DNA of 64,000 nt from Candidatus Eiseniibacteriota bacterium (GCA_942491735.1 CALOCN010000001.1:832040-896039); one strand, 5' to 3'. Positions 1,074 through 49,645 are shown, counted from the stretch's first letter. Program-made: numbers and translations. The notes: generated by a model not told the origin, from the sequence alone.

Positions 1074-4000
1074 ATGTTCCAGTTCGGAGTTGCCATGCCG
1101 TGCGCACGGTCGTTGTTGGCCATCCTCCTCCTGCTGCCCACACCGGTCCTGGCCGGGTCGGCGCAGGATCCGGTGATCTCGGCCCACGTGGTGGGGAACA
1201 TGTCAAAGGTGGGCCCTCTCTGCGGCTCGGGCGCGGACGCCATCCCTCCCTGCCCGGAGCACGTGACCTCCGCTCCCCGCCAGGAATCGACCGTCTACCT
1301 GATCGGGACCCGGCTTCCCGAGGGAGGCATTACCGAACTCTCCGTGGGTCTCGGGCTTTCCCCCGGTATCAGGGCGTTCGGTTGGACCCTGTGCGCCGAT
1401 TCGCAAGACCCTCGTTCGGGCTGGCCCGAAGGAGGCGCCAACCGGATCTCCTGGGACGCCTGCCAACCGGATCCGGCCATTGCCGGCGCCCTCTACATCT
1501 ACGCGTACGCGGAAGGCACCCTGGCGATCACCTCGCTGGAGTCCGGCCCGGGGGATGCCCCGGGATCGTTGATCGACTGCGCGGGATCCCGGATCGAAGT
1601 TGCCGCGTCCGCATCGGTGGGGTTCTCCGATTCGCTCCGGTTGAAGGGGTGCAACCCCTGCCGGGACAACTGCGCGAGTCTCTGCGGTGTGTGGCCGCGG
1701 CGGCTGGATGCGGGAATCGTCGCGATGGGCGAATGGACGAGGGTGAGGTTCACGGTCTGGAACAACGGAGTGCATCCGGTCGTCGGCGTAGCGACCGTCG
1801 ATTGTCCCGGCTTCGAGGTCGTGGGTCCCACCCCGGAAGGCGGCCCGGTTGGCGCGTTCTCCTTGGGGGAGGGCGAACAGACCGAAGTCGTGGTGCGTTT
1901 TCAGCCGGTCCTGGCCGGGCTCGACACCTGTGTCGTGGACCTGGGGTTCGCCTGTGGGGGAGTGGTCGTTTCGGGGAGGGGGGAAGGGAGCTGCCGTCTC
2001 TCCGCGACCGCGGTGGACTTCGGCCTGGTCCCGGTGGGGGGGACGGTGGTGGAGACGGTGACCGTGGTCAACCCGTCGCTCGAGGACTTCGCGGGGGAGA
2101 TCGCGAGCCCCTGCCCGGCCTTCCGGATTCTCGAGGGAGGAGGACCGTTCGTCCTGGGGCCCGGGGAGTCCCTTCCCCTGGTCATCGCCTATGCCCCCGA
2201 GGTCCAGGGGACGGACTCCTGCCTGATCTCCATCGAGGAGTGCCCCGTTCTGGAGCTTGCCGGGCAGGCGAAACAGTGCAGTCTCCTTCCATCCTCCACC
2301 CTCGTTCTCAGCCCCACCGTACCGGATTCCATTCGATACGGGACGTTCAAGGTGGTCAACACCGGCGTGGTCGACCTGGTGGGGGACATGCGTATCGAGT
2401 CCTGTTTCCCTGGATTCCGCATCGCGCGGGGGGGCGGTCCCTTCACTCTTGCCGCCGCCGGCACCCTTGAGGTCGACGTGGAGGCGGTGCCGGATACGGT
2501 GGGCCGCCTGGTCTGCACGGTCCAGACCGGGACGTCCTGCGGCCCGGTTTCCGTCGTGGTGCAATCCGACCCTCCCTGCCGGGTCACGCCCACCCAACTG
2601 GACTTCGGGGCGGTGCCGGTGGGGGAGGAGGTCAGCCTGACCGTAAAGGTCGACAAGTCGCGATACCTCGCTGTTCTGGAGGGGGATGCGCAGCTCATCG
2701 GGGATTGTCGGGACTACGAGATCATCTCGGGGGGCGGTCCGTTCGTCGTGGGAGGGGCAAGCCACCAGGTCACCGTGCGGTTCAAGCCAACCGGAGAGGG
2801 AGCTTCCGTCTGCACGCTTTCCCTTGGGGAGCGTTGCGACCCGGTCCGCCTCGCCGGAACGGCGAAGGCCTGTCATCTGGTGGATCGCCAGTTGGAGTTC
2901 GGGTCCGTCCCGGTCTTCGAGTCCGCTATCCGAAGCTTCACCCTGCGCAACCTCGGGGAGGGGCCGCTGGTGGGAACGGTCATCCTGGATCCCGCGTCGG
3001 AATCCCACGAGGCCTTCTCGGTCATCGGGAACCCGGATCTCGCTCTTGCACCGGGTGACTCGACCGAAGTGCGGATCGAGTTCCACCCTCGGGACGTCGG
3101 ATACCATGCCAGCCCCATCAGGCTGGTGCCCGATGTGTGCACCGGACAGCTGACCGCCCGGGGTTTCGGGGTCGGGCCCACCCAGCCGAACGCGAAGATC
3201 GCCCTGCACCTGCAAGCCCGGAAATTGCCGAACCCGGGATGCCGGCCGGTGGGTGTGGGTGGGTCGGTCCACGGCACCCTTCCCTGCGTCGACTACGAAA
3301 CCCGGGGACAGCTGGCCGAGCCCTATGACATCTATCTGGTAGTGGCCCAGGGGCGTCCCGGTTTCGGAATCGGCGGGGCAACGATCGGGATCGAGTACAC
3401 CGCGGGCGTCGAGGTGTTCGACTGGACGTCCTGTGCCAACCAGGATCATCAGGGGGCGGGTTGGCCGGGGTCCGGGTCGGGAAACGAGATTACCTTCCGG
3501 GTACCGGGGGATTGTCAGCGCACGGAGGGGCCCGGAAGTGGGGTGGTGGCGGTGCTGGGGTCCTTCTACACCATTGCCTACGGTTCGGGAACATTCGGGA
3601 TCATTCCCACTCCGGGGCTGGGATCCCTCGCCGTTGCCGATTGCGACCACGAGGTGTCGAATCTGGGGGTTGGGGATACCGGGGTGGTGGGGTTCGGGGA
3701 TGCGTCGGGTCGTTCCCCCTGTGCGGATGATCGATCTCCGGCGCGTTTGCAGTCATTCTCCGCGACGCGTCAGGGTTCCACGGCCGAGATCCGTTGGGCC
3801 GTGAGGGATCCCGACCCGGGTCACCACGGTTTCTTTGTCCATCGGGAAAACCCCCTGGGAGTGCGCGACCTCCTGAGTCCCCAGCCGGTGACCGGGGAGG
3901 GGGACTATGCCTACACCGACCCGACGCCTCCGGCGAGCGGGACCGCGTACTGGCTCCGCGAACTCTCTCCCAGCGGCATTCCGACCTGGCATGGACCGGC

Positions 4001-4307
4001 CATGCTCGGTTCGGCTGAGCCCATCCCCCCCGCGCTCCTGGAGGCTGCCTTCTACCCCAATCCCTTCCGCGGCGACACCCGGTTCCGGATCCAACTGCCG
4101 AGTCCGGGGCGGGTCACGTTGCAGGTCTTCGATGCGGCCGGACGTGAACTGGCGCGCCCGGTGTGGCAAGCGTTCCCCGCCGGCATCCACGAGGTGGCCT
4201 GGGATGGGCGCACGCGGTTGGGTCTTGCCCTGGCGCCGGGAGTCCACTTCTACCGTGTGACTTCCCCGGATGGCGTGCTCAACGGAAAACTGGTCCGCCT
4301 CGACTGA
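1074..4307 (+). CDS. Giant secreted protein with a T9SS C-terminal sorting domain. It also carries repeated GGGPF beta-sandwich (choice-of-anchor-D-like) modules and two copies of a ~140-aa Cys-containing domain.
   Basis: The signal peptide is MPCARSLLAILLLLPTPVLAGSA; an alternative ATG lies at 1095. The motif ...GGGPF... recurs (ILEGGGPFVLG, IARGGGPFTL, IISGGGPFVVG). The C-terminus is FYPNPFRGDTRFRIQLPSPGRVTLQVFDAAGREL...GVHFYRVTSPDGVLNGKLVRLD, typical of Por_Secre_tail / FlgD Ig-like. Confidence 0.8.
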   Translation: MFQFGVAMPCARSLLAILLLLPTPVLAGSAQDPVISAHVVGNMSKVGPLCGSGADAIPPCPEHVTSAPRQESTVYLIGTRLPEGGITELSVGLGLSPGIRAFGWTLCADSQDPRSGWPEGGANRISWDACQPDPAIAGALYIYAYAEGTLAITSLESGPGDAPGSLIDCAGSRIEVAASASVGFSDSLRLKGCNPCRDNCASLCGVWPRRLDAGIVAMGEWTRVRFTVWNNGVHPVVGVATVDCPGFEVVGPTPEGGPVGAFSLGEGEQTEVVVRFQPVLAGLDTCVVDLGFACGGVVVSGRGEGSCRLSATAVDFGLVPVGGTVVETVTVVNPSLEDFAGEIASPCPAFRILEGGGPFVLGPGESLPLVIAYAPEVQGTDSCLISIEECPVLELAGQAKQCSLLPSSTLVLSPTVPDSIRYGTFKVVNTGVVDLVGDMRIESCFPGFRIARGGGPFTLAAAGTLEVDVEAVPDTVGRLVCTVQTGTSCGPVSVVVQSDPPCRVTPTQLDFGAVPVGEEVSLTVKVDKSRYLAVLEGDAQLIGDCRDYEIISGGGPFVVGGASHQVTVRFKPTGEGASVCTLSLGERCDPVRLAGTAKACHLVDRQLEFGSVPVFESAIRSFTLRNLGEGPLVGTVILDPASESHEAFSVIGNPDLALAPGDSTEVRIEFHPRDVGYHASPIRLVPDVCTGQLTARGFGVGPTQPNAKIALHLQARKLPNPGCRPVGVGGSVHGTLPCVDYETRGQLAEPYDIYLVVAQGRPGFGIGGATIGIEYTAGVEVFDWTSCANQDHQGAGWPGSGSGNEITFRVPGDCQRTEGPGSGVVAVLGSFYTIAYGSGTFGIIPTPGLGSLAVADCDHEVSNLGVGDTGVVGFGDASGRSPCADDRSPARLQSFSATRQGSTAEIRWAVRDPDPGHHGFFVHRENPLGVRDLLSPQPVTGEGDYAYTDPTPPASGTAYWLRELSPSGIPTWHGPAMLGSAEPIPPALLEAAFYPNPFRGDTRFRIQLPSPGRVTLQVFDAAGRELARPVWQAFPAGIHEVAWDGRTRLGLALAPGVHFYRVTSPDGVLNGKLVRLD

Positions 4308-4405
4308 CCTGTCACGCTTTTCCCGGGAACCCGTACTCCTCCCGCTTCACGCGGGGGTCGTCTTGGTTTGGCCTCCGCCCTGCTCTTACGCCAGGAGGAG
4401 ATCTC

Positions 4406-5815
4406 ATGTCCAGGACGGTCCGCATCGCCGCGGTCTGCTCACTTCTCGCCTTTGCCGTGGTTGGATGCGGAGAGGATGGGGTCGTTGAGCCGACCGGTTC
4501 CGGGTTCACCGAAGGGCTCCAGGAGTCCCGTCTTTCGCCCCAGGCCCACACCTCGCCCCAACTCTACGAAGTCACCATCACCAACCTGACCTACGGTCAG
4601 CCGTTCTCGCCGCCGGTTGCGGCAACCCACCGGGGGGCCATTCAGATGATGCCCCAACGTGGCACGGCCAGTCCCGGCCTGGAAGCGATCGCCGAGGACG
4701 GCAACAACGCCCTCATGCTGTCCACCTTCCAGGGTTCGGCCCATGTCACCGAGGCCCTCGACGTCGCGGCGCCGGTGCACTACAAGGACTCCCCCCACGG
4801 CGCGAACAGCGTGACCTTCATGATCGAGGGGCGTCCCGGGGATCGCTTCTCCTTCGCGGCCATGCTCATCGCGACCAACGACGGTTTTACCGGGGTGCGT
4901 GGGCACATGCTCCCCAGGGACGTCGTCACCTTCGACACCTACGCCTATGACGCGGGGACCGAGGACAACACGGAAGCCAGCAGCGACATCGTCGATGCAG
5001 CCACCGCGATCGGGCCGGTCGCCCTGGCCGGGGACCCCAACGGAAACGAGAACGACGCGGTGGACACGACACCCCACAGCCGCATCAGTCGTCATCCCGG
5101 CATCCAGGGAAGCGGGGACCTGGGCGACGCGCACGACTGGAGTGGCGCGGTGGCCCGGGTGACCCTCCGCAAGGTGGCTGGCCCCATGACCTACCGGGTG
5201 ACGCTCCGCAATCTGTCCGCGTATCAGCCCATCTCCCCCCCGGTGGTCGTCACCCATGCCCAGGGCATGCACCTGTTCCGCACGGGTCACACCGCCTCGC
5301 CCGGGATCGAGGCGATTGCCGAGGATGGCAACGGCGCCCCCCTGATCAGCGCGCTCGACGGCGCCTCCGGGGTGACCGAGGTCGTCGATGTCGGCATGCC
5401 GTTGACCCGCGCCGGGACCTCGGTGGGTGGCTTCATGGACACGGCCGAGATCATGATCACCGCAATGCCCGGGGATCGCCTGTCCCTGGCCGGCATGTTG
5501 ATCTGCACCAACGACGGGTTCGTCGGGGTGGATTCGGCTCCGCTCCCGGTCCACTCGCGGACGCTACGGCTCACCGGGTTGGACGCCGGCACGGAAGAGA
5601 ACACCGAGGCCAGCGCCGACATTGTCGACGCGTGCGGTGCGTTGGGTGCGGTGGCTCTCCCCGCGGACGGCAACGAGAACGCGGCGGTGGATACCCAGCC
5701 GCGGCAACGGATCCGGCGTCATCGGGGTATTCACGGCGCGGGTGATCTCTCGCAGGGACAACACGGATGGAAAGGCACGATCCTGGAAGTGACGGTGGAG
5801 CGGGTGCCGGAGTAG
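4406..5815 (+). CDS. Lipoprotein with two tandem spondin_N-like domains.
   Basis: An RBS (aggagg) precedes the ATG at 4406. The lipobox is LLAFAVVGC. Two repeats follow the spondin_N pattern: YEVTITNLTYGQPFSPPVAATH...ASPGLEAIAEDGN...IATNDGFTGV and YRVTLRNLSAYQPISPPVVVTH...ASPGIEAIAEDGN...ICTNDGFVGV. Confidence 0.7.
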   Translation: MSRTVRIAAVCSLLAFAVVGCGEDGVVEPTGSGFTEGLQESRLSPQAHTSPQLYEVTITNLTYGQPFSPPVAATHRGAIQMMPQRGTASPGLEAIAEDGNNALMLSTFQGSAHVTEALDVAAPVHYKDSPHGANSVTFMIEGRPGDRFSFAAMLIATNDGFTGVRGHMLPRDVVTFDTYAYDAGTEDNTEASSDIVDAATAIGPVALAGDPNGNENDAVDTTPHSRISRHPGIQGSGDLGDAHDWSGAVARVTLRKVAGPMTYRVTLRNLSAYQPISPPVVVTHAQGMHLFRTGHTASPGIEAIAEDGNGAPLISALDGASGVTEVVDVGMPLTRAGTSVGGFMDTAEIMITAMPGDRLSLAGMLICTNDGFVGVDSAPLPVHSRTLRLTGLDAGTEENTEASADIVDACGALGAVALPADGNENAAVDTQPRQRIRRHRGIHGAGDLSQGQHGWKGTILEVTVERVPE

Positions 5816-7282: not shown

Positions 7283-7288
7283 AACGGC

Positions 7289-9052
7289 CTAGGGCAAACG
7301 CACGACGCGTTGGGTGCGGCGATGCTGCCCCGCCTGCAGACTCAGCAGATAGACGCCGGAGGCCACCGCGCTTCCGGCGTCGTTCGTTCCGTCCCAACGC
7401 ACTTCGTACGAACCGGCCGGCCGCTCGCCGTCCTCGATGAGCCGGACCCGCCGCCCGCGCAGGTCATAGACCGCGAGTTGGACCCGACCCGGCTCCTGGA
7501 CCTGGAACGCGATGGTGGTGGAGCTGCGGAACGGATTGGGGAACCGGGCCAGCTGGAGCTGCGGTGAGTCCGGGGTGTGGGGAGCGGCCAACTGCCCGTC
7601 AATCCGGAAGTCCGCAACAATCGCCGCGTGATCGCTGGCGATTTCGGTGTCTCCGGCGAGGAGCCCGGTTGCCGCGAGAGTGCTGGGGAGCATGGTTCGG
7701 GTCTCCACCACGAAGTGCGCGCCCAGGGTCATGACGCTTCCCGAGTAGACCACCCAATCCAGTTTCCCCGGCGAGAAGGAGCTGCCGTCGTTGCGCCAGG
7801 TGTAGGCGAAGCGGGCGTCGGGGTGCCGTGGGTTGGCGTCCTCGAGGTCGGACCCGTCCCAGTCCGGCGGGGAGTCCGGGCCCCAGGTTCCGTTGTCGGC
7901 AATGTCCCCGGTGAGCAGGGTGACCAGCTGATCCCGCCACCCCACGAGGTTGAAGTCCCCACAGACCACGAGGGGGGTGTTGACCGGAAGATCCAGAACC
8001 CCGCCCGGGGTGCGTGCATCGTCCAGGAAAGCGATCAGGGCATCCGCCTGCCGCTGGCGGTTGGCGTCCGCGGTGCAGCAGCTCCAATGATTGGCCACCA
8101 CAAGCAGGTCGGTCACATAGGAGGGACCGGGGTCCACCAGGGCAGCGGAGAGCCGGTCGCCCGGGTTGATCTCCCAGGAGTCGAGAATAGGAAAGCGGCT
8201 CACGATCACGTTGCCCGCGTCCCGCTTGACCGCGTGCCAGGCCTCGCCGGGGCCGCTGGGGAGCAGCGTTTCCATCTGATTCGCGACCGCCGAGGCACTA
8301 CTGTTCCAGGCCTCGCAGATGACCCAGACGTCCGGATCAACGGCGTCGGCGATACGATTCTGCGCCGCCTCCCGCGAACCCCCGTCAAAGAGACCGTCGT
8401 TCTCCACATTGTAGGATGCGATCCGCAGGTGGGATGGGTCGTTCCGGGCCAGGGAGAGGGAAGGAATGGGTTGGGGAGCTTCGTCGAACGTGTAGGTCGC
8501 AAGGGAAATGACATCTCCGCTCCCCCCATCGCGCAACACGAGCCGGATCGTGGTCTGGGGAAAGAGGGCCGCTCCCGCGGCCGGGGTGGCGGAACGATCC
8601 AGGGACATCTCGAATCGGGTGTCGCTCACCGTGGGGCCGATGACGAAACCAATGTCGTCGTGGCGAATGGTGTATCCGTTTCCGGCGGCGGTGAACGTCC
8701 CCTCCCGTTGCCCGAACTCCCACACCAAATCCGCCCCGATCCCGGACATGGACTGGCCGGTGCCGGCGTTCATGTCCGTATCGATGCCCAGCTCGATGCC
8801 CTGCCCCTCGTCACCCTGGACCTCGGCCGTGGTGTCGAAGAACAGATACAGCCAGTCCGGGTCGTTGGCCACGACCAGCTGGGTGAAATCGATTCCGCTG
8901 GGGCCATGGTCCCCGCTGGCGTCGATCACGCTGACCGGAATGCCGGCCCATTCGTCGAAGTCACCATCGATACGAACAGGCAGGGAGCCCGCGAACACGG
9001 TCGCGGGAATCAGGGCGAGGAGGGTGACCAGGGTGAGGAGCTGATGATGCAT
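7289..9052 (-). CDS. Secreted endonuclease/exonuclease/phosphatase (EEP)-family protein with a T9SS C-terminal sorting domain.
   Basis: The true start is MHHQLLTLVTLLALIPATVFAGS, a signal peptide, at 9052. The track ORF 7289..10258 is over-extended upstream. The EEP core includes VWVICEAWN...VCGDFN...SDHAAIVADF. The C-terminus is ARFPNPFRSSTTIAFQV...GVYLLSLQAGQHRRTQRVVRLP. Confidence 0.75.
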   Translation of the reverse strand: MHHQLLTLVTLLALIPATVFAGSLPVRIDGDFDEWAGIPVSVIDASGDHGPSGIDFTQLVVANDPDWLYLFFDTTAEVQGDEGQGIELGIDTDMNAGTGQSMSGIGADLVWEFGQREGTFTAAGNGYTIRHDDIGFVIGPTVSDTRFEMSLDRSATPAAGAALFPQTTIRLVLRDGGSGDVISLATYTFDEAPQPIPSLSLARNDPSHLRIASYNVENDGLFDGGSREAAQNRIADAVDPDVWVICEAWNSSASAVANQMETLLPSGPGEAWHAVKRDAGNVIVSRFPILDSWEINPGDRLSAALVDPGPSYVTDLLVVANHWSCCTADANRQRQADALIAFLDDARTPGGVLDLPVNTPLVVCGDFNLVGWRDQLVTLLTGDIADNGTWGPDSPPDWDGSDLEDANPRHPDARFAYTWRNDGSSFSPGKLDWVVYSGSVMTLGAHFVVETRTMLPSTLAATGLLAGDTEIASDHAAIVADFRIDGQLAAPHTPDSPQLQLARFPNPFRSSTTIAFQVQEPGRVQLAVYDLRGRRVRLIEDGERPAGSYEVRWDGTNDAGSAVASGVYLLSLQAGQHRRTQRVVRLP

Positions 9053-9253
9053 CGAGAAAGTATAGGGCAGACAAGTCTGCCTTGAGCGAACAATGCCGAG
9101 TGGACCCACCCAGGGGATGGGCTCCGTTCGTTTCCCGGGTTTCTTTCCGTGCCGTTGCACACTCTCGGCGAAGAATCCGCATGTCCCAGTGACCCGCAAG
9201 CCGGCGCGGGCCGACCCGAGGCCGGCTGGACCCTTCCCAGAGAGGCCACTGCC

Positions 9254-10228
9254 ATGCGACACATCACCGTAATCCTCCTTCTTGTATGCGCTTGGGCGTT
9301 CCCTGCGAGTTCCCTGGCCGGAACCGGGGACCTGAGCCTGGACGCCCCTTTTGACAACCTGGCCTTGGGCCCGGTCGGTACGGGGGGGGCCGCCGCGGGC
9401 CAGCCCATCGTGGTCTCGGCCATGACCGCCAACGTGATCGACACCGGATCGTCCTACGCCCTGGAGGCGATTCACACCGCGCTCCTCGTCCCGGGAGGCG
9501 TCTGGTTCGAGTTCATTGGCGACGAGGAGATCACCTCGGGCACCGTCTGCATCTCCTATACCGTCACGTTCCAGGCGCTGGGGATCTACATCTTCACCAT
9601 CTACGAACAGGGGAGTGTGGGAAGCCAGTTCTCCAAGATGACCCTCAATGCGGGTGGACAGATCTCCTTCTTCGATCAGAACAACCTGGTAGGCGCGATC
9701 GCTACCTCGAGCTATCAGGTCGGCGTTCCGCTGGAGGTTCTCTACGAGTACGACCTGGATGCCGGGACCTACGACGTGAGCCTGGGCGGATCGCTTCTGT
9801 TGGACGACGAGGACCACGGCATCACGACCCGGGGAATCGGTCGACTCATGTTCACCAACAACGCGTTCAGTGCCGGTCACTTCGTCCTGGATGACGTCAA
9901 GGTGCAGAAGGGCGGGGCGGCGCTTGCTGCGGGTCCCGGGGTGGTCCCGGGGTTGGGAATGCTGCATGCCCCGCAGCCCAACCCCATGCGGAGCGGCACC
10001 CGGGTGCGGTTCGACCTGGAGCAGGCGGGAGCGGTGCAGGTGTCCGTGTTCGACGCCACCGGGCGGCGGGTCCGTACGTTGATCAACGGGGCGCTGGGGG
10101 TGGGCACCCACGACATCCGATGGGACGGCGCCGATGACCGGGGGATCACGGTTCCGGCCGGGCTCTATTTTGTGCGGCTCCACTCGGGTGGGCAGGCCGT
10201 TGCGCGCAAGGTCATTCGGGTGGACTGA
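9254..10228 (+). CDS. Secreted protein of unknown function with a T9SS C-terminal sorting domain.
   Basis: Start MRHITVILLLVCAWAFPASSLAG, a signal peptide. The C-terminus is QPNPMRSGTRVRFDLEQAGAVQVSVFDATGRRVRTL...GLYFVRLHSGGQAVARKVIRVD. The upstream part of track ORF 9149.. is 5' leader. Confidence 0.7.
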   Translation: MRHITVILLLVCAWAFPASSLAGTGDLSLDAPFDNLALGPVGTGGAAAGQPIVVSAMTANVIDTGSSYALEAIHTALLVPGGVWFEFIGDEEITSGTVCISYTVTFQALGIYIFTIYEQGSVGSQFSKMTLNAGGQISFFDQNNLVGAIATSSYQVGVPLEVLYEYDLDAGTYDVSLGGSLLLDDEDHGITTRGIGRLMFTNNAFSAGHFVLDDVKVQKGGAALAAGPGVVPGLGMLHAPQPNPMRSGTRVRFDLEQAGAVQVSVFDATGRRVRTLINGALGVGTHDIRWDGADDRGITVPAGLYFVRLHSGGQAVARKVIRVD

Positions 10229-10316
10229 TGACCCTCGGGCTTGAGCTTCGTCGATCATTGAACTAGCCTCTCGTTTGAACGTTCATGCGAGAGCCAGTGA
10301 TTCTTCGGAGGTCTTC

Positions 10317-11919: not shown

Positions 11920-11924
11920 ACTAG

Positions 11925-37849: not shown

Positions 37850-38039
37850 GACATGTCCTCGATCGGCCCAAAGCAACAGAGCAGCCCTGCCTTGACTGAG
37901 CAAGGGTCGTTCCAACCGGGGGCGATGAGGCGTCACGGCAAGAGCCCGCTGCGCAAGGGGTTTCGAGGTCGGGAAGGACCGGGCGCCACCGCCGGCCGTT
38001 TCCTGTCGCAGGGGTGCGACACCACGTGTCTTGGGGGAC

Positions 38040-39458
38040 TCACGTTTCGGACCGACGGGACTCGATTCCCAACCGGCGCATCTTCCGGTGAAGGTTGGCC
38101 CGGTCGATGCCAAGGGTCCGCGCAGCCTGGCTGACGTTGCCGGCGGCCCGATCGAGTTCCTGCTGCAGGATTTCCCGCTCGGCCGCCTCCAACATGCGCT
38201 TGAGCAGGCCCTCGGAGGCATCCCCATCCACATCCAGTTCCAGGCTCATGTTCATGCCGGTCCCGCCCGGTTCCTGACCCAGCAGGCTCGCTACCTGCTC
38301 GGGGCCCACCACCGGCGAGGGGGTCATGATGACCAGGCGTTCCATGAGGTTGCGCAGTTCGCGCACGTTGCCGGGCCAGGAGTGGCGTTCCAGGAGGGCC
38401 ATCGCGGGCGGGGTGATCTCCATGTCGGGGCGACCGTATTCCTCGCGGAAGTACCCCAGATAGTGCTCGGCCAGTTGTGCCACATCACCGGCGTGGTCGC
38501 GCAGAGCAGGGACCAGGATGGGGAGGACGTTGAGGCGGTAGAACAGATCCTGGCGGAAGGAGCCGTCGGTGGAGGCCTTCTTGAGATCCTGGTTGGTGGC
38601 GGCGATGATGCGGGCGTCGAAGGCGTGGATCTTGGTGCCCCCCACCCGCTCGAACTCGTTGGACTCGAGCGCCCGCAGCAGCTTGGCCTGGGCTTCCAGG
38701 TTCATGTCGCCGATCTCGTCCAGGAACAGCGTACCGCCGTGGGCCAGTTCCAGCTTGCCCTTCTTGAGCGCATCGGCTCCGGTGAACGCGCCTTTCTCGT
38801 GACCAAAGAGCTCGCTTTCCACCAGGTCGCGGGGGATGGCGGCGCAGTTGAGACGAACAAAAGGCCCGTCCAGCCGGGCGCTCATGTCGTGGATGGCCCG
38901 CGCCACCAGCTCCTTGCCCACGCCGTTCTCCCCCAGGATGAGCACCTTGGCCGGGGTGGGAGCGGCCCGGGTGATCAGGGCGCGCAGTTCCTCCATGGGC
39001 TTGCTGTCCCCGACCAGGCGGTGCAGCGCGCCCGCCTCCTCCTTCAGGGCGAGGTTCTGCCGACGCAGCGAGTGCATCTGCAGGGCCCTCTCCACGGTGA
39101 TCCCCAGGCGTTCCGGGGTGAATCCCTTCTCGAGAAAGTCGAACGCGCCCAGCCGTACCGCTTCGACCGCCAGCTCGATGGTCCCGTGGCCGCTCATCAT
39201 GATGACCGGATGTTCCCGGGTGATGTCCTCGCGCCGTTCCAGGAAGGCGACGCCGTCCTCGCCCGGCATGCGCACGTCCAGGAGGATCACATCCACCGTG
39301 GCGCCGTGCTTGGCCAGCACCTTCTCCGCCTCCGCGGGGTCCTTGCTCTCCAGCACCCGGTACCCCTCGTCGGTGAGGTACCCGGCGAGGGAGCTGCGGA
39401 CGCGGGCCTCATCATCGACGATGAGTACGGTGCGACGGGGTTCGTCCCGCGAGCTCAT
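38040..39458 (-). CDS. Sigma-54-dependent Fis-family response regulator (NtrC-like).
   Basis: The receiver domain has VLIVDDE...D...; the sigma-54 interaction domain has GENGVGKELVARAIH and the GAFTGA motif (EKGAFTGA). The C-terminal Fis HTH is ...QAARTLGIDRANLHRKMRRLGI. Confidence 0.9.
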   Translation of the reverse strand: MSSRDEPRRTVLIVDDEARVRSSLAGYLTDEGYRVLESKDPAEAEKVLAKHGATVDVILLDVRMPGEDGVAFLERREDITREHPVIMMSGHGTIELAVEAVRLGAFDFLEKGFTPERLGITVERALQMHSLRRQNLALKEEAGALHRLVGDSKPMEELRALITRAAPTPAKVLILGENGVGKELVARAIHDMSARLDGPFVRLNCAAIPRDLVESELFGHEKGAFTGADALKKGKLELAHGGTLFLDEIGDMNLEAQAKLLRALESNEFERVGGTKIHAFDARIIAATNQDLKKASTDGSFRQDLFYRLNVLPILVPALRDHAGDVAQLAEHYLGYFREEYGRPDMEITPPAMALLERHSWPGNVRELRNLMERLVIMTPSPVVGPEQVASLLGQEPGGTGMNMSLELDVDGDASEGLLKRMLEAAEREILQQELDRAAGNVSQAARTLGIDRANLHRKMRRLGIESRRSET

Positions 39459-41014: not shown

Positions 41015-41021
41015 GGTGCGG

Positions 41022-43288: not shown

Positions 43289-46200
43289 ATGAAGATGAAC
43301 GGTTCCAGGAAGACGGAACACCGCGACGATAACGCAAGAGCGCTGTCGGACTCCTGGCAGGAGCTCCCGGATGCGGTGAAGTACGGCGACCTCTGCTATC
43401 AGGCCGAGCGGTACCGTGATGCGCTGGATGCCTACCTCAAGGTTCTCGCGACTCCCAAGGCGGGCATGCCGACCGCCATCGCGGCCCGGCTGCATTATCG
43501 GATCGCCATCTGCTACCAGCGTCGCGCCAATTATCGGCAGGCCCTGGACCATCTGGACAAGGCCCGGCAGGTCCTGCCGCGGCACATCGACAAGGTCCAG
43601 CTGGCTCGCATCTACGGCAGCCGCGGGCAGATCGTCTCGGAGATGGGGCAGTACAAGCGCGCCGAGCGCTACCTGACCTGGGCCAAGAAGCTCCTCAGTC
43701 GCACCACCGAGCACGAGGAGTTGGCCACCGTCGAGAACCGTCTGGGCGTCCTGTACTACCGTTCGGGGCGTCATCAGGAGGCGGCGCAGGCCTACTTCAA
43801 TGCGCTGGCCACCTACCGACGGGTGGGGGATACGCGGGGCGAGGTTCGCTCCCTCAACAACCTCGGTCTGCAACACAAGAACCTCTGCCAGTGGCGCGAG
43901 TCCATCCACTACCTGGATCAGGCGCGCACCCTGGCCGAGAAGATCGGCTACCACGAACTGCTCATCGCCACCAATCTCAACCTGGGCATTGCCCATCTCA
44001 AGATGGGCAAGTGGGAACTGGCCGAGGAGAACCTGGACACCGCCGAGCGGTTCGCCAACGAGTTCGGCGGCACCCTCAACGGGGTACTCATCAACTCGAC
44101 CCGGGGTTGCCTGCGCTTGCGCCGTCGTCAGTGGGACGACGCCGAGGAGATCCTGAGCACGGTCATCCGCACCGCCGAACGCGAAGGGTTCACCCGCGAA
44201 GGCATCATCGCCGAGGAGTTCCTGGGCGAAGTGTATCTGGAGCGGGGTGACCTGGATCGTGCGGCGGAGATCCTCGAGGGGACCCTGACCCGGGCCCGCG
44301 ACGTGGCACCCGAGTCCGACATGGTGGACGAGATCCTGCGCCGGCTGGCCGATGTCCGCCTGCGTCAGGGACGGCATGCCGAGGCGTTGCCACTCGCCCA
44401 GGAGGCCATGAACCTGGTGGAGCACAACGGCGACCGGTACGAACACCCGGTCGCCCTGAAGGTACTGGCGCTCGCGCACCTGGAACTGGGGAACCGGGAA
44501 CGGGGCGAGGCGCTGATGGACGAGGCCCTGGCCGAATTCGCCGAGGTCTCGGACCCGTACAACCGGGGTTGGGCGAACCTGCACTACGGGCAGTACCTGT
44601 CCCGCACCGCGCGGGCCAGTCACGACCCGGACGATTTCGAAAAGGCGCTGCTGCAGCTTCAGCGCGCCTATGGAGCGTTCCTCGACCTGGACGCCCGCAG
44701 CGCCGCCGCGGTGGCGGCCACGGAACGGGCGGAGCTGGAGAGCGCGTTCCAGCGTCTGGAGGAAGCCGCGTCCTATCGCAACAAGGCCCTGCGGATCCTT
44801 CCCCGGGGCACGGACCCGGAACTGGAAGCGCGTCTCCAGCAACTGGGCGTGGATCTCGAGGCCTCCATCACCGAGCGTTGGTCGGCCGGCGGGGACGTCC
44901 TCACGTCGCTGCGGGAGATGAAGCGCCTGTTCCAGGGAGCTTCCGGAACGGACGGCGTCCTGGAAGAGTTGACCCGACTCGTGGTGACCCGGTCCCGGTC
45001 CAGCCGGGGTTGTGTGGCCCATGTCTCGGAAGACGGCATCCGCATTGCCGCCGTGTACGGCTGGGCCGAACGGGAAGCCGAGGGGCTCCTCACCGGCCTG
45101 CAGACCCAGTTGATGCGTTCCAGCGGCGAGAATCGCCCCCTCTGGTCCAACAATCCCAACGAGGATCCGCAGTTCCGGTCCCTGTCCACCGCCTTCGGGA
45201 TCCGCAGCTTCGTGCTCCTTCCGCTCACCCTGACCGAGCAGCGTACCGGCTTTCTCTACGTGGACAAGACCGGCGAGAGCCTGGAAGGCGGGTACCAGGA
45301 GGGCGAGCTCAACCTGCTCACCGTCATGGCCAACCTCGCCGCCCTCACCATCGTGGAGCGGTGGAACCGTGAGCTGGCGGTCGAGAACAAGAAGCTCAAG
45401 GCGCAGATCGGCGACGCGGATGGCGAAACCCGGTTCGTGACCGCCAACTCGGATCTCAAGGAAACCCTGCGTCTGGTTTCCAAGGTGGCCAACAGCCCCG
45501 TCTCCATCCTCATCGAAGGGGAAACCGGGACCGGCAAGGGGCTCCTGTCCCAGGTCATCCACGACGCCTCCAACCGCCGGGATCGCCCGTTCGTGCAGAT
45601 CAACTGCGCCGCGCTTCCCGAGCAGCTCCTGGAGAGCGAACTCTTTGGTCATGTAAAGGGGGCCTTCACCGGCGCCACCTACAACAAGACCGGTCTGTTC
45701 AAGGAGGCCGAGGAAGGCACGCTGTTCCTGGACGAGGTGGACAAGACCAGCCTGGCCGTTCAGGCCAAGTTGCTCCACGTCATGGACGCCAAGGAAGTCC
45801 GGGCGGTGGGTTCGGTGAAGTCGTTCCGGGTCGATACCCGGGTCATCGTGGCCACCAACACCAACCTCATGGAGCGGATCAAGGCGGGCGAGTTCCTCGA
45901 GGACCTCTACTACCGTCTCAACGACTTCATCCTCCACGTGCCCCCCTTGCGGGAGCGTCGCGAGGACATCCCGCTCCTCATCGAGCACTTCCTGCGGAAG
46001 TTCTCCCGCCAGTATGAGCGCCCCGAGGTGCATCTCACTCCGGAGGCGCGTCGGGTGCTGCTGGAGCAGCAGTGGCGGGGCAATGTCCGGGAGCTGGAGA
46101 AGACCATCCGGCGCCTGGTCGTGCTCGCCGACGACGATGTGGCCGCGGGTATCGACCTCCTCCCTGCCGACCTGCTGTCCCCCGGGGCGCAACGCAAGGT

Positions 46201-46378
46201 CTCGGCATCGACCACGCTCCGCGACGAAGTGGCCAAGACGGAGCGTCGCGTGATCAGCGACGCCCTGCGCGCCAACGGGTGGAACAAGGCCCAGGTCGCG
46301 CGCGAGCTGAAGATCTCGTATCCCTGTCTTCTCAAGAAGATCAAGGACTTCGGGCTCGAGAAGCCGACCGTCGCGTAA
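43289..46378 (+). CDS. Sigma-54-dependent transcriptional activator with N-terminal TPR repeats and a GAF-like domain.
   Basis: TPR-like repeats span ~residues 30-500. The sigma-54 AAA+ domain has GETGTGKGLLSQVIH and FGHVKGAFTGA. The C-terminal Fis HTH is ...KAQVARELKISYPCLLKKI. Confidence 0.85.
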   Translation: MKMNGSRKTEHRDDNARALSDSWQELPDAVKYGDLCYQAERYRDALDAYLKVLATPKAGMPTAIAARLHYRIAICYQRRANYRQALDHLDKARQVLPRHIDKVQLARIYGSRGQIVSEMGQYKRAERYLTWAKKLLSRTTEHEELATVENRLGVLYYRSGRHQEAAQAYFNALATYRRVGDTRGEVRSLNNLGLQHKNLCQWRESIHYLDQARTLAEKIGYHELLIATNLNLGIAHLKMGKWELAEENLDTAERFANEFGGTLNGVLINSTRGCLRLRRRQWDDAEEILSTVIRTAEREGFTREGIIAEEFLGEVYLERGDLDRAAEILEGTLTRARDVAPESDMVDEILRRLADVRLRQGRHAEALPLAQEAMNLVEHNGDRYEHPVALKVLALAHLELGNRERGEALMDEALAEFAEVSDPYNRGWANLHYGQYLSRTARASHDPDDFEKALLQLQRAYGAFLDLDARSAAAVAATERAELESAFQRLEEAASYRNKALRILPRGTDPELEARLQQLGVDLEASITERWSAGGDVLTSLREMKRLFQGASGTDGVLEELTRLVVTRSRSSRGCVAHVSEDGIRIAAVYGWAEREAEGLLTGLQTQLMRSSGENRPLWSNNPNEDPQFRSLSTAFGIRSFVLLPLTLTEQRTGFLYVDKTGESLEGGYQEGELNLLTVMANLAALTIVERWNRELAVENKKLKAQIGDADGETRFVTANSDLKETLRLVSKVANSPVSILIEGETGTGKGLLSQVIHDASNRRDRPFVQINCAALPEQLLESELFGHVKGAFTGATYNKTGLFKEAEEGTLFLDEVDKTSLAVQAKLLHVMDAKEVRAVGSVKSFRVDTRVIVATNTNLMERIKAGEFLEDLYYRLNDFILHVPPLRERREDIPLLIEHFLRKFSRQYERPEVHLTPEARRVLLEQQWRGNVRELEKTIRRLVVLADDDVAAGIDLLPADLLSPGAQRKVSASTTLRDEVAKTERRVISDALRANGWNKAQVARELKISYPCLLKKIKDFGLEKPTVA

Positions 46379-46619: not shown

Positions 46620-46636
46620 TGGCACAGCCCCTGCAT
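46620..46636 (+). promoter_or_regulatory. Sigma-54 (-24/-12) promoter.
   Basis: The sequence TGGCACagcccCTGCAt has GG and GC elements at the canonical 10-nt spacing, matching the TGGCAC-N5-TTGCW consensus. It lies immediately upstream of the AAA ATPase ORF. Confidence 0.6.
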
Positions 46637-46646
46637 ATACAGGTGC

Positions 46647-48242
46647 GTGGAGGGGGGACCTCCAAAGCCGTCAGCCGTCGGGTTCCAGAGACGACTTGCT
46701 TTGCAGCTCAGTCGACCACCGGATCTGGAACCCGATGGTGCGGCCTTGCACCTCGCAGGGAAAGACAAGGTGATCCTCGTGCGCCGCGAGACACTCCAGG
46801 CTTTCAAAGACCAGTTTGAATACCTCGCCGATTGCTTCGAGCTCATTCGAAAGCGCGGCGACGCGTACAACATCCGCAACGAAGCCACCGAGACCGAACG
46901 CATGGTCCGGTACAGCGAACGCACCGGCTTCGAATCCGAGCGGAGCCACCTGCTCGAGATCTACCACGGCATCGAAGCCGAGGTCCGTCGCAAGGAACGG
47001 GAGATCCGCGCCCGGGTCAAGGAAACCCGATCCGGCGGAACCACGTTCCCCCTGGACGCCTTCGTCGAGCGGCACCGCCTCTCCCCGGAAGAGCTCCAGA
47101 TCCTTCTCGTGCTGCTCTACAACGAGTCGGTGGGCCGCAACCACGCCCGGTTCACCTCGGGCAACGAGATTCTCAACCTGCTTTTCCCCAACCCGGTGAG
47201 CGCGCTCAAGGCGTCGCGGTACCTGGACCTGGGGTCGACCCTGCTCGACGACGAGCTGATCCGCGTCACTTCCGACGACGAAGCGGCGAACTTCCTCCGT
47301 GCGACCTACGAGGTTTCCGAGACCACCCTCCACGAGGTGCTGGGGACCGGAGACCGCGAGACGTTCAAGGCGCGGCAGGCGGCGTCACGATCCGCACAGA
47401 CGACCGAAGGGCCGTTCCGGATCGTCACCCCGCGTGTCACCCTGGACCGCGTCGTCATGGAGGGGAAGCTTCGCGAGGGGATCGAGGAAGTCCTGTGGCA
47501 GGCCGAGGAAGGCGACCGGCTGTTCCGGCACTGGGGTCTGGACCAGGTCCTGGAGAAGGGGAAGGGGACCATCGTCCTCTTCACCGGCCCTCCAGGAACC
47601 GGCAAAACCATGACCGCCGAAGCCATGGCCCAGCACCTGGGGCGTCAGCTCTACATCGCGGACTACGCCGAACTCGAGAGCAAGTGGATCGGCGAGACCG
47701 AGAAGAACATCGTCTCCATCTTTTCCGCGGCGGCCCAGGCGGGCGCGGTCCTGCTTCTCGACGAGGCGGACGCGATCCTCTCCAGCCGTCTGGACGGCGG
47801 GCACTACAACGACCGTGCCTACAACCGTCAGGTGAGCATTCTTCTCACCGAGCTCGAGGCCTACGACGGGGTGGCCATTCTGACCACCAACCGTTCCGTG
47901 TCCCTGGACACCGGTCTCGCGCGACGCATTTCCGCCACCTTCGAGTTCGACGTGCCCACCCCGCAGGAGCGGGCCCGCATCTGGGACGGTCTGTTGCCGG
48001 CCAAGATCGGCCGGGGGCCGGATGTGAACCTCGAGGTATTGGCGAACAAGTTCGAAATGTCGGGCGGCCATATCAAGAACGCGGTGTTGACCGCGGTTCG
48101 CAAGGCGGCCCGTCGGGACGGCAAAGAGGCCGTCCTGTTGCAGAGAGATTTGGTGGAGGCGGCGGCAGCCGAGCAACTGAGCTTCCATCCGTGTTCCCGC
48201 AGGATCGGATTCCGCGAGGCACCCGCCGCTTCCTACTCTTGA
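46647..48242 (+). CDS. AAA+ family ATPase with an N-terminal helical domain. The start codon is uncertain.
   Basis: The Walker A motif is GPPGTGKTMTAEAMA and the Walker B motif is VLLLDEAD. The track GTG start at 46647 abuts the predicted sigma-54 transcription start. A downstream start (GTG ~46770 or ATG 46902) is more likely. Confidence 0.7.
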   Translation: MEGGPPKPSAVGFQRRLALQLSRPPDLEPDGAALHLAGKDKVILVRRETLQAFKDQFEYLADCFELIRKRGDAYNIRNEATETERMVRYSERTGFESERSHLLEIYHGIEAEVRRKEREIRARVKETRSGGTTFPLDAFVERHRLSPEELQILLVLLYNESVGRNHARFTSGNEILNLLFPNPVSALKASRYLDLGSTLLDDELIRVTSDDEAANFLRATYEVSETTLHEVLGTGDRETFKARQAASRSAQTTEGPFRIVTPRVTLDRVVMEGKLREGIEEVLWQAEEGDRLFRHWGLDQVLEKGKGTIVLFTGPPGTGKTMTAEAMAQHLGRQLYIADYAELESKWIGETEKNIVSIFSAAAQAGAVLLLDEADAILSSRLDGGHYNDRAYNRQVSILLTELEAYDGVAILTTNRSVSLDTGLARRISATFEFDVPTPQERARIWDGLLPAKIGRGPDVNLEVLANKFEMSGGHIKNAVLTAVRKAARRDGKEAVLLQRDLVEAAAAEQLSFHPCSRRIGFREAPAASYS

Positions 48243-48757
48243 TCGGGGGCACCGCAGGGTGTCCGCAAACGAAAATACACGGTGGGAGGCTGGGGGTCGC
48301 TCCTCCGGCCTATCCAGGCTCCGCCGGCGACCGGGTTTGTGATCCGGGCAACGGTGGGGCTCCTTCCCTGCGATTCGGGTTTCGACTCGACTCGTTTCGG
48401 TGGAGGTGCAAGTAGGGGACGGGGGTTCTATCGAGCGCAGGCCCCCGTTCCCGCCTTTCCCACTTCGGTTGCGTGAGAAACAACCGGAGACCTGTCGCCG
48501 GTTTTTCAAGATGGTTTTACCGCCGGCAGGGGTCGTTCAGATTCGTTCGGGTGTCGTGAGTTCTCGGCTCACAGACCATATATGGGGGATGTCCAGGCTG
48601 GTGCCAGAACCCTCCCGATACTCGAACTTGGAGGCGGCGTCGGACCCCTTGGCCCGACGCCGTTTCTTGTATGGGCGGTTGCTTGTTAAGGCCGTGTTAG
48701 ATTGGGGATGTTCGCCTCGATCCCACCGAGACCCACCGCCCTTCGAGGAGGACTCGG

Positions 48758-49645
48758 ATGCTGCCCAGGTGTATTTGCCTCATGGCCATCGGACTGCTGC
48801 TCCTTCTCTTCCCATTCCTGATCGGGCCTCTTCCCGCCCAGGCCGGCACCCAGGACGGTGCCGTGGTCGCCCTGCATTCGAAGGCGAGGGCCGCCAAGCC
48901 CACGCTGGTGTGTGCCGGGGATCCGGCCAGCGAGGACCCGGTGACCCAGGGGATCGCGTGTTCCGACTTTGACACGAGTCCCCAACCCTTGGAGACGGGG
49001 CGCGATGTCTATCTGGTGGTCGGCAGAGCCGACCCGGTGCCCGGGATTGCCGGGGTGTCCTGTGGCGTCCTGTACGAGAGCAGCAACGTGGGTGTTTTCG
49101 ACTGGACCCTGTGTGCGGATCTGGAGTTCCCGTCCGGCGGTTGGCCCGCTTCCGGGGCCGGCAATCGGATCACCTGGATTGCCGCCACCAATTGCCAGAC
49201 CACCACGATCGGCACCGATGGGGTACACGCCGTGGCCGGGGCGTTCTACCTGTATGCCTACGGCAATGGGACGTTCGAGGTGGGACCCAATTTCAGCCTG
49301 GGTGGATTCGGTGAGTTCCGGGTCGCAGACTGCGGTGCCGCGGAGTCGGACGTCGTAACTCACGGATCGGTTGTCGGCTTTGGCGATGAGCAAGGATACA
49401 CCCCCTGTTCATTGCACGAGGTGTTTCCCTGCACGGTCCACACCCCGGACGCTCCCAAGCACTGTTGTTGCACGGACGAGTTCCCGCCGTTCGAGTACGA
49501 GTTCGTTTGGGAGCAGTACTGCGAGCATCATGAAGGCACGGTGATCACCGGCACCTGCTCGATGTCCTGTGAACAGATCTGTGCCGGCGCCGTGCCGGTG
49601 GAGCGAACCAGTTGGGGGCTGATCAAGGCGGGCCGAGGAGAGTAG
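48758..49645 (+). CDS. Secreted Cys-rich protein. It carries one copy of the ~140-aa domain shared with the 1074..4307 protein.
   Basis: The signal peptide is MLPRCICLMAIGLLLLLFPFLIGPLPAQA. The domain runs DVYLVVGRADPVPGIAGVSCGVLYESSNVGVFDWTLCADLEFPSGGWPASGAGNRITW...GAFYLYAYGNGTFEVG...VADCGAAESD...VVGFGDEQGYTPC. The C-terminal tail has 12 Cys, including CCC. Confidence 0.6.
   Translation: MLPRCICLMAIGLLLLLFPFLIGPLPAQAGTQDGAVVALHSKARAAKPTLVCAGDPASEDPVTQGIACSDFDTSPQPLETGRDVYLVVGRADPVPGIAGVSCGVLYESSNVGVFDWTLCADLEFPSGGWPASGAGNRITWIAATNCQTTTIGTDGVHAVAGAFYLYAYGNGTFEVGPNFSLGGFGEFRVADCGAAESDVVTHGSVVGFGDEQGYTPCSLHEVFPCTVHTPDAPKHCCCTDEFPPFEYEFVWEQYCEHHEGTVITGTCSMSCEQICAGAVPVERTSWGLIKAGRGE

What the first reader, a model, noticed from the sequence alone, without database searches (positions are those of the whole stretch)
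1074..49645. Undescribed ~140-aa Cys-punctuated domain present three times: twice in the giant T9SS protein and once in a secreted Cys-rich protein
Seen in sequence: three segments align well to one another.
- 1074..4307 protein, about residue 65-200.
- The same protein, about residue 745-885.
- 48758..49645 protein, about residue 85-225.

Shared columns are [VI]YL[VI]..........(Y/L).......VF(D)WT.CA(D/N)......GWP.SG.GN.I(T/S)(W/F).....C.......(A/S)G.FY.YAYG.GTF.......G..G...VADC...E........G.VVGFGD..G..PC.

The invariant features are the WT-CA, GWP-SG-GN, FY-YAYG-GTF and VADC signatures, with 3-4 conserved Cys.

I do not recognise this as a named Pfam/TIGR family from memory.

In the large protein one copy follows the signal peptide and the other immediately precedes the T9SS tail. 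In the small protein it is followed by a tail with 12 Cys, including CCC.

Inference: a disulfide-stabilised extracellular binding or adhesion module specific to this lineage.
Basis: seen in the sequence. Interest (0 to 1): 0.6.

Follow-up and report, generated by a model that had tools for sequence, protein, structure and literature searches.

The report
Divergent cohesin-fold module of Eisenbacteria
The thrice-repeated cysteine-containing segment is a real, unannotated ~185-residue secreted domain whose predicted structure is a cohesin-type beta-sandwich (the docking module of cellulosomes), here in surface proteins of an uncultured Eisenbacteria-like bacterium with no known partner.

Summary
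Protein A (1074-4307) carries two copies and protein B (48758-49645) one, with pairwise BLASTP E of 2e-31 and 2e-17; there are no other copies in the window. The domain is about 185 aa, starts right after the signal peptide with 'GTQDxAVxALH', and has six conserved Cys, not 3-4.

No Pfam-A or NCBIfam model and no PDB sequence matches it. It is nevertheless a large family: 1697 representatives at 50% identity, and every named genome is a Candidatus Eisenbacteria MAG.

Two AlphaFold models (pLDDT about 97 over the domain) each hit almost only cohesin modules in the PDB (top 45-49 hits, probability 1.00, TM 0.55-0.64). The fold is therefore known, although sequence-level homology to cohesins is not demonstrable.

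Family proteins contain only Ig-like spacers plus either a T9SS tail or a short C-terminal tag, 'TTWGxIKxxYR'. That tag is modular and widespread on unrelated secreted proteins in metagenomes.

Best reading: a disulfide-stapled, cohesin-like surface docking or assembly module with an unknown ligand. It is a new variant of a known kind, of moderate interest.

The parts
1074..4307 (+). Protein A, 1077 aa. Order: signal peptide, cohesin-like copy 1, about five Ig-like (choice-of-anchor D / ASH) repeats, cohesin-like copy 2, about 105 unassigned aa, then a FlgD_ig / T9SS type A C-terminal domain.
   Evidence: ORF. Pfam ASH/HYDIN Ig and FlgD_ig. NCBIfam choice_anch_D at 89.8 bits and TIGR04183 at 25.4 bits (cut-off 23). 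The same architecture occurs in P0116, P0118 and P0129.
1152..1670 (+). Cohesin-like domain copy 1 (A residues 27-199), directly after the signal peptide. It is the most divergent of the three copies.
   Evidence: BLASTP to B gives E 2e-17 at 34% identity. HMM score 244 bits. Cys at 50, 60, 107, 130, 169 and 196, plus an extra one at 193.
3174..3731 (+). Cohesin-like domain copy 2 (A residues 701-886).
   Evidence: BLASTP to B gives E 2e-31 at 42% identity. HMM score 305 bits. Cys at 723, 738, 787, 814, 857 and 883.
4053..4304 (+). T9SS type A sorting domain (FlgD Ig-like) of protein A, residues 994-1077.
   Evidence: TIGR04183 at 25.4 bits (cut-off 23). PF13860 at 33.8 bits (cut-off 27).
48758..49645 (+). 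Protein B, 295 aa. Order: signal peptide (1-28), cohesin-like domain, Cys-rich insert, C-terminal tag.
   Evidence: ORF. No Pfam or NCBIfam hit. It is identical to P0001, which lies on a 1.38-Mb NCBI contig.
48842..49417 (+). Cohesin-like domain of B (residues 29-220).
   Evidence: AlphaFold pLDDT is about 97 over residues 30-220. The top 49 Foldseek PDB hits are all cohesins. Conserved Cys at 52, 68, 119, 146, 192 and 217, plus Cys102, which is conserved in 53% of instances.
49418..49594 (+). Cys/His-rich insert in the linker of B (residues 221-279; 8 Cys including CCC, 4 His). Among the family proteins inspected it is shared only with P0017.
   Evidence: Sequence. pLDDT is below 50. The linker is 63-66 aa in B and P0017, against 7-17 aa in nearly all other tailed members.
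49595..49642 (+). C-terminal tag PVERTSWGLIKAGRGE (family consensus PVExTTWGxIKxxYR), predicted to be a short helix.
   Evidence: Present in 191 of 244 family proteins. In paralog P0008 the tail helix has pLDDT of about 86. The same tag ends many unrelated secreted proteins.

Best explanation
The repeated segment is a roughly 185-residue extracytoplasmic module with a cohesin-type nine-stranded beta-sandwich fold. An extra Cys-bracketed loop lies between strands 1 and 2, and six conserved cysteines are inferred to form three disulfides. It defines a large, unannotated family found in Candidatus Eisenbacteria-like bacteria.

Proposed working:
- The proteins are exported by Sec, as shown by their signal peptides, and are inferred to fold oxidatively in the periplasm.
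- They are then either carried to and fixed on the cell surface through a T9SS C-terminal domain (protein A) or localised through the short C-terminal tag TTWGxIKxxYR (protein B and most family members).
- On the surface the module is inferred, by analogy with cohesins, to act as a protein-protein docking or assembly unit. In protein A one copy sits at each end of a stalk of Ig-like repeats.
- The ligand is unknown and is probably not a classical dockerin.

The family, its fold, its architecture and its distribution are shown here. The disulfides, the surface location and the docking function are inferred. The confidence of 0.55 is for the whole statement: about 0.85 for 'unannotated secreted family with a cohesin fold' and about 0.35 for the protein-docking function.
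For: - The three copies are homologous.
- The family is large: 115 clusters at 90% identity and 1697 representatives at 50% identity with E<=1e-3, of which 668 are at <=1e-30.
- AlphaFold models of B (pLDDT about 97 over residues 30-220) and of the same-contig paralog P0008 (mean pLDDT 91.8, pTM 0.85) both return cohesin modules as the top 49 and top 45 PDB hits. These include types I, II and III and the non-cellulosomal cohesins 2vo8, 2jh2 and 2xdh. Best E is 4e-6, probability 1.00 and target-normalised TM 0.55-0.64. The first non-cohesin hits have TM of about 0.2-0.25.
- Six Cys columns are 89-98% conserved over 318 domain instances. Cys68 and Cys217 are lost together in 22 instances, which suggests they pair.
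- Of 244 family proteins, 233 have a copy within 60 residues of the N-terminus.
- Every domain found alongside it in the relatives scanned is a non-catalytic spacer or sorting element (ASH / choice-of-anchor D, Big_5, He_PIG, PPC, FlgD_ig / T9SS tail). This is a scaffold-like architecture.
- N-terminal copies are most similar to N-terminal copies of other proteins (57 of 72), and C-terminal copies to other C-terminal copies (42 of 72). The two positions are therefore old, differentiated subtypes.
- Lineage: named genomic hits are all Eisenbacteria, and the window's enolase is 72-74% identical to Eisenbacteria enolases.
Against: - Sequence-level homology to cohesins is not demonstrable. No member hits PF00963 at E<=10. 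The family profile finds no cohesin among PDB sequences. hhalign against six verified PDB cohesins gives E 0.13 and probability below 1%. That cohesin profile was shallow, so the test is weak.
- A regular-expression search found no dockerin-like Ca-binding repeat in the window or in about 110 kb of related loci.
- There is no conserved gene neighbour that could point to a partner.
- I could not inspect model coordinates, so the disulfide geometry and the location of conserved residues on the surface were not checked.
- The cohesin fold is close to that of carbohydrate-binding modules, so fold alone does not fix the type of ligand.
Confidence: 0.55

Rival explanations
1. It is a carbohydrate-binding module. 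On this reading the beta-sandwich uses its conserved aromatic residues (W in WT-CA, GWP, ITW; Y/F in FYxYAY) to bind a polysaccharide. It would tether the cell or its surface proteins to a glycan substrate or to the cell's own exopolysaccharide.
For: Trp, Tyr and Phe columns are 85-93% conserved. The beta-jelly-roll fold is shared by cohesins and many CBMs (established knowledge). T9SS cargo with Ig-like spacers in FCB bacteria are often glycan-directed (established knowledge). No dockerin-like partner was found.
Against: No CBM appears among the top 45-49 structural hits; they are all cohesins. No CBM Pfam family matches. None of the relatives scanned carries a glycoside hydrolase, lyase or other catalytic domain. 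Whether the conserved aromatics are buried or exposed is unknown.
Confidence: 0.2
2. It is a self-assembly subunit. The N-terminal and C-terminal copies, or a domain and the TWGxIK helix of a neighbouring molecule, would bind head to tail to polymerise these proteins into a surface layer or fibre.
For: Copies sit at both ends of long Ig-repeat proteins. N-type and C-type copies form separate similarity groups. The tag follows the last domain after a short linker of near-fixed length, 7-17 aa, and is predicted to be an ordered helix with pLDDT of about 86. Some members carry Big_5/SbsA-type Ig repeats, which are typical of S-layer proteins.
Against: The tag is far more widespread than the domain and sits on many unrelated proteins; only 8 of 94 tag-terminated ORFs carry the domain. 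It is therefore not a dedicated ligand of this domain. Most family members (172 of 244) have a single copy. No multimer prediction could be run.
Confidence: 0.15
3. The similarity is not meaningful: a compositional or low-complexity artefact, or mis-called ORFs in GC-rich DNA.
For: The window is 60-70% GC and produces many spurious overlapping ORFs.
Against: Pairwise E-values are 2e-31 and 2e-17 with composition correction. There are hundreds of homologues with conserved signature columns. GC3 of 0.78-0.80 is typical of real genes here. The fold prediction is confident.
Confidence: 0.01

Closest known systems
Cohesin modules (Pfam PF00963; types I-III of cellulosomal scaffoldins, and non-cellulosomal cohesins such as Clostridium perfringens 2vo8/2jh2 and Archaeoglobus fulgidus 2xdh)
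   Same: The predicted fold and strand order are the same (Foldseek probability 1.00, TM 0.55-0.64, about 150 aligned columns). Both are extracellular. Both occur in multiple copies in non-catalytic, spacer-rich proteins that are anchored to the cell, like scaffoldins. A local motif also lines up: family 'P..GIAGxSCGIxY' against cohesin 'PskGIAncDFvfrYD' (not significant).
   Different: No detectable sequence homology. The family has about 45 extra residues, including a Cys-bracketed loop after strand 1, and six conserved Cys, whereas classical cohesins need no disulfides. The host is a Gram-negative FCB-group candidate phylum with T9SS anchoring, not a Firmicute with SLH or sortase anchoring. 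No dockerin was found, and the proteins are not linked to glycoside hydrolases.
NCBIfam 'choice-of-anchor' domains (for example choice_anch_D, NF012200, and choice_anch_V, NF041895)
   Same: The behaviour is the same: a secreted domain that appears with alternative C-terminal sorting or anchoring elements, here a T9SS tail in A, P0116 and P0122 versus the TWGxIK tag in B and most members. Protein A also contains genuine choice_anch_D repeats.
   Different: No choice-of-anchor model or any other NCBIfam model matches the domain. It would be a new family of that descriptive class.
T9SS type A cargo proteins (TIGR04183 / Por_Secre_tail, FlgD_ig-type C-terminal domains)
   Same: Protein A and relatives end in a C-terminal domain that scores above the TIGR04183 and PF13860 cut-offs. 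Other proteins in the window do too: 7289-10258 and 53466-56987.
   Different: This describes the sorting signal of protein A only, not the domain in question. Protein B and 191 of 244 family proteins lack it and carry the short tag instead.

Membership tests
Cohesin (PF00963) | Nine-stranded beta-sandwich (jelly-roll) cohesin fold | tested here: met
   Two AlphaFold models return cohesins as the top 49 and top 45 PDB hits, with probability 1.00 and TM 0.55-0.64. These are predicted structures, not solved ones.
Cohesin (PF00963) | Significant match to the family's sequence profile | tested here: not met
   No PF00963 hit at E<=10 in any of 102 members. The family profile finds no PDB cohesin. 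hhalign against six PDB cohesins gives E 0.13 (the cohesin profile was shallow).
Cohesin (PF00963) | Binds a dockerin module (paired Ca-binding EF-hand-like repeats) encoded in the same organism | tested here: inconclusive
   A regular expression for the dockerin Ca-binding loop found nothing in the 64-kb window or in about 110 kb of related loci. The whole genome was not available, and binding cannot be tested with these tools.
NCBIfam choice-of-anchor domains | Match to one of the curated choice-of-anchor HMMs | tested here: not met
   Neither B nor P0008 gives any NCBIfam hit at E<=1. Only the Ig repeats of protein A match choice_anch_D.
NCBIfam choice-of-anchor domains | The same domain is found with different C-terminal sorting signals | tested here: met
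   A T9SS tail in A, P0116, P0118, P0122 and P0129, against the TWGxIK tag in 191 of 244 proteins.
T9SS type A cargo (protein A only) | C-terminal domain scoring above the TIGR04183 / Por_Secre_tail cut-off | tested here: met
   TIGR04183 at 25.4 bits against cut-off 23, over residues 994-1074. FlgD_ig at 33.8 bits against cut-off 27.
T9SS type A cargo (protein A only) | Genome encodes the T9SS machinery (PorK/L/M/N, Sov, PorU/V) | not tested
   Not looked for. Only a 64-kb window was available.
Carbohydrate-binding modules | Sequence or structural match to a CBM family | tested here: not met
   No CBM Pfam family matches at E<=10. No CBM appears among the 50 listed PDB structural hits of either model.

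The most novel reading that the evidence does not exclude
Eisenbacteria-like bacteria may use a cohesin-fold module with a non-dockerin ligand to assemble a surface scaffold in a Gram-negative, T9SS-bearing setting. Separately, the short C-terminal tag 'TTWGxIKxxYR' carried by most family members may be an undescribed and widespread sorting or anchoring signal for secreted proteins in uncultured bacteria. It has no transmembrane segment and sits 0-10 residues from the stop codon on many unrelated signal-peptide proteins, including a choice-of-anchor V protein.
Probability: 0.25. Interest if true: 0.75.

Novelty: new variant of a known kind. Interest (0 to 1): 0.5.

Why it matters
Cohesins are the textbook high-affinity docking modules of Gram-positive cellulosomes and are widely used in protein engineering. 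Here is a large cohesin-fold family that sequence searches do not recognise. It is stabilised by disulfides, lives in a Gram-negative candidate phylum with no cultured members, and is tied to T9SS rather than to dockerins or cellulases. That would widen the known range of this fold's use, and it gives a first structural handle on the surface proteome of Eisenbacteria.

In practical terms, the family deserves its own Pfam/NCBIfam model; 1697 clusters at 50% identity currently carry no annotation. The associated C-terminal tag may mark a protein-sorting route that has not been described.

Tried and rejected
- Pfam and NCBIfam scans of A, B, all 102 family members and P0008 gave no family for the domain.
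- A PDB sequence search with the 3-sequence profile gave histone H2B at E 3e-4. I rejected this as noise because it disappears with the 102-sequence profile, where the only hit is an antibody chain at E 0.037.
- hhalign of the family profile against three and then six PDB-verified cohesins was not significant. An attempt to deepen the cohesin profile returned only 10 close CipA relatives, so that search was of little use.
- I tested whether the CPBP/Rce1-like protease next to B (49745-50662) is a dedicated partner. It is not conserved: neither it nor the AAA ATPase, the sigma-54 activator or the M6 peptidase recurs next to family genes in nine other loci.
- A dockerin regular expression found nothing in the window or loci.
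- Clustering the neighbours of tag-bearing genes in 69 metagenome loci gave only generic families (ABC transporter, STAS / anti-sigma partner-switch proteins) and no obvious sorting enzyme.
- Literature searches for the tag motif, and for Eisenbacteria with cohesin or with T9SS, returned nothing.
- Exact-sequence look-ups of P0003, P0008 and P0022 for genome context failed. Cluster look-up gave no names.
Full report
**The observation**

The window encodes protein A (1074-4307, +, 1077 aa) and protein B (48758-49645, +, 295 aa) as described. BLASTP of B against A gives two strong alignments. B 31-218 aligns with A 703-884 at 42% identity (E 2e-31), and B 24-217 aligns with A 22-196 at 34% identity (E 2e-17).

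An HMM built from the three copies finds only these three in a six-frame translation of the whole window.

The real unit is about 185 aa: A 27-199, A 701-886 and B 29-220. It starts directly after the signal peptide with a conserved strand 'GTQDxAVxALH', followed by a loop bracketed by two further conserved Cys.

All three copies keep six Cys. In 318 domain instances from 244 family proteins these six columns are 89-98% conserved, and a seventh is conserved in 53%. The Cys-rich stretch after the domain in B holds 8 Cys (CCC at 236-238), not 12.

**Whether the domain is described**

Pfam-A and NCBIfam recognise other parts of protein A: Ig-like repeats (ASH/HYDIN; choice_anch_D at 89.8 bits) over roughly residues 200-700, and a FlgD_ig / T9SS type A tail at 994-1074 (TIGR04183 at 25.4 bits, cut-off 23). 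Neither library finds anything over the repeated domain or anywhere in B.

Scanning all 102 collected family members against Pfam at E<=10 gave no recurrent family. The family profile finds no solved structure by sequence. As a sequence family it is therefore unannotated.

It is not small. A word-indexed search found 115 clusters at 90% identity. An exhaustive profile search found 1697 representatives at 50% identity with E<=1e-3, of which 668 are at <=1e-30.

**Lineage**

Every genomic hit that carries an organism name is a Candidatus Eisenbacteria MAG, and the rest are labelled 'uncultured bacterium'. One MAG holds at least nine copies, four of them in tandem. The window's enolase is 72-74% identical to Eisenbacteria enolases, which are its closest named relatives. 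The host is therefore Eisenbacteria-like.

**Fold**

AlphaFold2 with the 102-sequence alignment gave a model of B with pLDDT of about 97 over residues 30-220. It is an all-beta sandwich, and the Cys-rich insert is disordered.

A second model was made of P0008, a typical 231-aa paralog from the same 1.38-Mb contig. It had mean pLDDT 91.8 and pTM 0.85.

Foldseek against the PDB returned cohesin modules as the top 49 hits for B and the top 45 for P0008. These cover types I, II and III and also the non-cellulosomal cohesins of C. perfringens (2vo8, 2jh2) and A. fulgidus (2xdh). Best E is 4e-6, probability 1.00 and target-normalised TM 0.55-0.64, at 7-16% sequence identity. The first non-cohesin hits are adhesin Ig-like domains with TM of about 0.2-0.25.

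The order of predicted strands maps one-to-one onto the nine cohesin strands. The extra disulfide loop is inserted between strands 1 and 2 (my reading against the 1anu sequence verified).

At the sequence level the relation is not demonstrable. hhalign against six cohesin sequences that I verified against the PDB gave E 0.13. Its best local segment does align the family's 'PxxGIAGxSCGIxY' with the cohesin 'PSKGIANCDFVFRYD'. The template profile was shallow, so a full HHpred run is still needed.

**Architecture**

Among 244 family proteins, 172 have one copy, 71 have two and 1 has three. In 233 a copy lies within 60 residues of the N-terminus.

Multi-domain relatives repeat the layout of protein A: signal peptide, domain, Ig repeats, domain, T9SS tail (P0116, P0118, P0129). 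Others replace the spacer with Big_5 repeats or a proline-rich linker. In the nine relatives scanned, the accompanying domains are all non-catalytic.

N-terminal copies most resemble the N-terminal copies of other proteins (57 of 72), and C-terminal copies resemble other C-terminal copies (42 of 72). They rarely resemble their own partner (13 of 144), so the two positions are old, differentiated subtypes.

Cys68 and Cys217 (B numbering) are lost together in 22 instances, which suggests they form a pair.

No gene neighbour is conserved. The CPBP/Rce1-like protease next to B recurs only in a contig from the same organism.

**The C-terminal tag**

B ends in PVERTSWGLIKAGRGE. In the family, 191 of 244 proteins end in W[GSA]x[IVLM]K followed by 0-12 residues (consensus PVExTTWGxIKxxYR). 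The tag usually comes 7-17 residues after the last domain. B and P0017 are exceptions because they share an 8-Cys insert in that linker.

Proteins with a T9SS tail lack the tag. In the P0008 model the tag is a short helix with pLDDT of about 86.

The tag is modular. A 191-aa signal-peptide protein with an unrelated body in locus L010 ends in the same way.

I then scanned metagenome contigs for DNA encoding TTWGKIK. Of the 103 matches lying in long ORFs, 85 place the motif 0-10 residues from the stop codon, and 43 give exactly TTWGKIKxxxx-stop. Of the 94 matches with a stop within 20 codons of the motif start, only 8 carry this domain.

The other carriers have signal peptides and varied bodies. 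By eye these include LamG-like and discoidin-like domains and PD40 repeats. One is a choice-of-anchor V protein at 101.8 bits. No paper in the searchable library contains the motif.

I read the tag as a C-terminal sorting or anchoring signal that serves as an alternative to the T9SS domain. It is much more widespread than the domain, so it is not the domain's dedicated ligand.

**Interpretation**

Shown here:
- a real, large, unannotated family of secreted modules;
- a confident prediction of the cohesin fold;
- six conserved Cys;
- a scaffold-like, non-catalytic architecture;
- two alternative C-terminal sorting elements;
- restriction of named genomes to Eisenbacteria.

Inferred:
- three disulfides;
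- surface location, following from what is established for T9SS type A cargo;
- a docking or assembly function, by analogy with cohesins.

The main rival is glycan binding. The fold is close to that of CBMs and several aromatic columns are conserved, but no CBM appears among the structural or sequence matches. A head-to-tail self-assembly model is also open. A chance or compositional artefact is excluded.

**Verdict**

The module is undescribed as a sequence family and is plausibly an extracellular, disulfide-stabilised binding module, but it is not a new fold.

I rate it a new variant of a known kind: a cohesin-fold family in a Gram-negative T9SS setting with no dockerin. Interest is about 0.5. 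The most interesting loose end is the widespread C-terminal tag.

Noticed in passing
window 49595-49642 (end of B); L010 12283-12858 (-); metagenome loci L012-L131: The short C-terminal tag 'TTWGxIKxxYR' has no transmembrane segment and is predicted to be helical. It ends many unrelated signal-peptide proteins in metagenomes: 85 of 103 long-ORF matches to TTWGKIK lie 0-10 residues from the stop, and only 8 of the 94 matches with a stop within 20 codons carry the cohesin-like domain. One carrier is a choice-of-anchor V protein. No NCBIfam model and no paper in the library mentions the motif. It may be an undescribed sorting or anchoring signal.
   Followed up: partly
window 49418-49594 (B residues 221-279): A Cys/His-rich insert (8 Cys including CCC, 4 His) lies between the domain and the tag. 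It is shared, with the same Cys spacing pattern (K.CCC.DE.P...C...C...C.E.C.A), only with P0017 from a different 3.36-Mb genome. AlphaFold leaves it disordered. It could be a metal site or a disulfide knot.
   Followed up: partly
window 49745-50662 (+): A CPBP/Rce1-like intramembrane protease (PF02517, E 8e-23) lies immediately downstream of B. It is tempting to see it as a processing enzyme for the C-terminal tag, but it is not found next to family genes in nine other loci.
   Followed up: yes
window 3732-4052 (A residues 887-993): An unassigned segment of about 105 aa ('RLQSFSATRQGSTAEIRWAV...HGFFVHRE...') lies between the second cohesin-like copy and the T9SS tail. By eye it is conserved in P0116 and P0118. 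No Pfam or NCBIfam hit.
   Followed up: no
window 7289-10258 (-) and 53466-56987 (+): Two further large secreted proteins carry FlgD_ig-type T9SS tails. One is an endonuclease/exonuclease/phosphatase-family protein. The other is an M6 (immune inhibitor A) peptidase with FG-GAP repeats. The region is rich in putative T9SS cargo.
   Followed up: no
window 4403-5815 (+): Directly downstream of protein A lies a secreted protein with two Spondin_N domains (PF06468, E 4e-16). This domain is best known from animal extracellular matrix proteins.
   Followed up: no
window 43289-46378 (+) and 46647-48242 (+): Upstream of B lie a TPR-GAF sigma-54 activator (1029 aa) and an AAA ATPase with a winged-helix domain. 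Neither is conserved next to other family genes.
   Followed up: partly
window 19155-22280 (-), 33007-34506 (+), 36467-38233 (-), 50828-51772 (+), 51992-53230 (+): Several long ORFs with gene-like codon bias (GC3 0.83-0.89) remain unassigned. Three of them (19155-22280, 33007-34506, 36467-38233) had no Pfam match at E<=1e-5. For 50828-51772 and 51992-53230 only the overlapping opposite-strand ORFs were scanned, and those also gave no hit.
   Followed up: no
L002 5932-10889: Four family paralogs lie in tandem in one Eisenbacteria MAG, interrupted by a 519-aa ORF (8547-10106) of unknown type. The family expands by local duplication.
   Followed up: no
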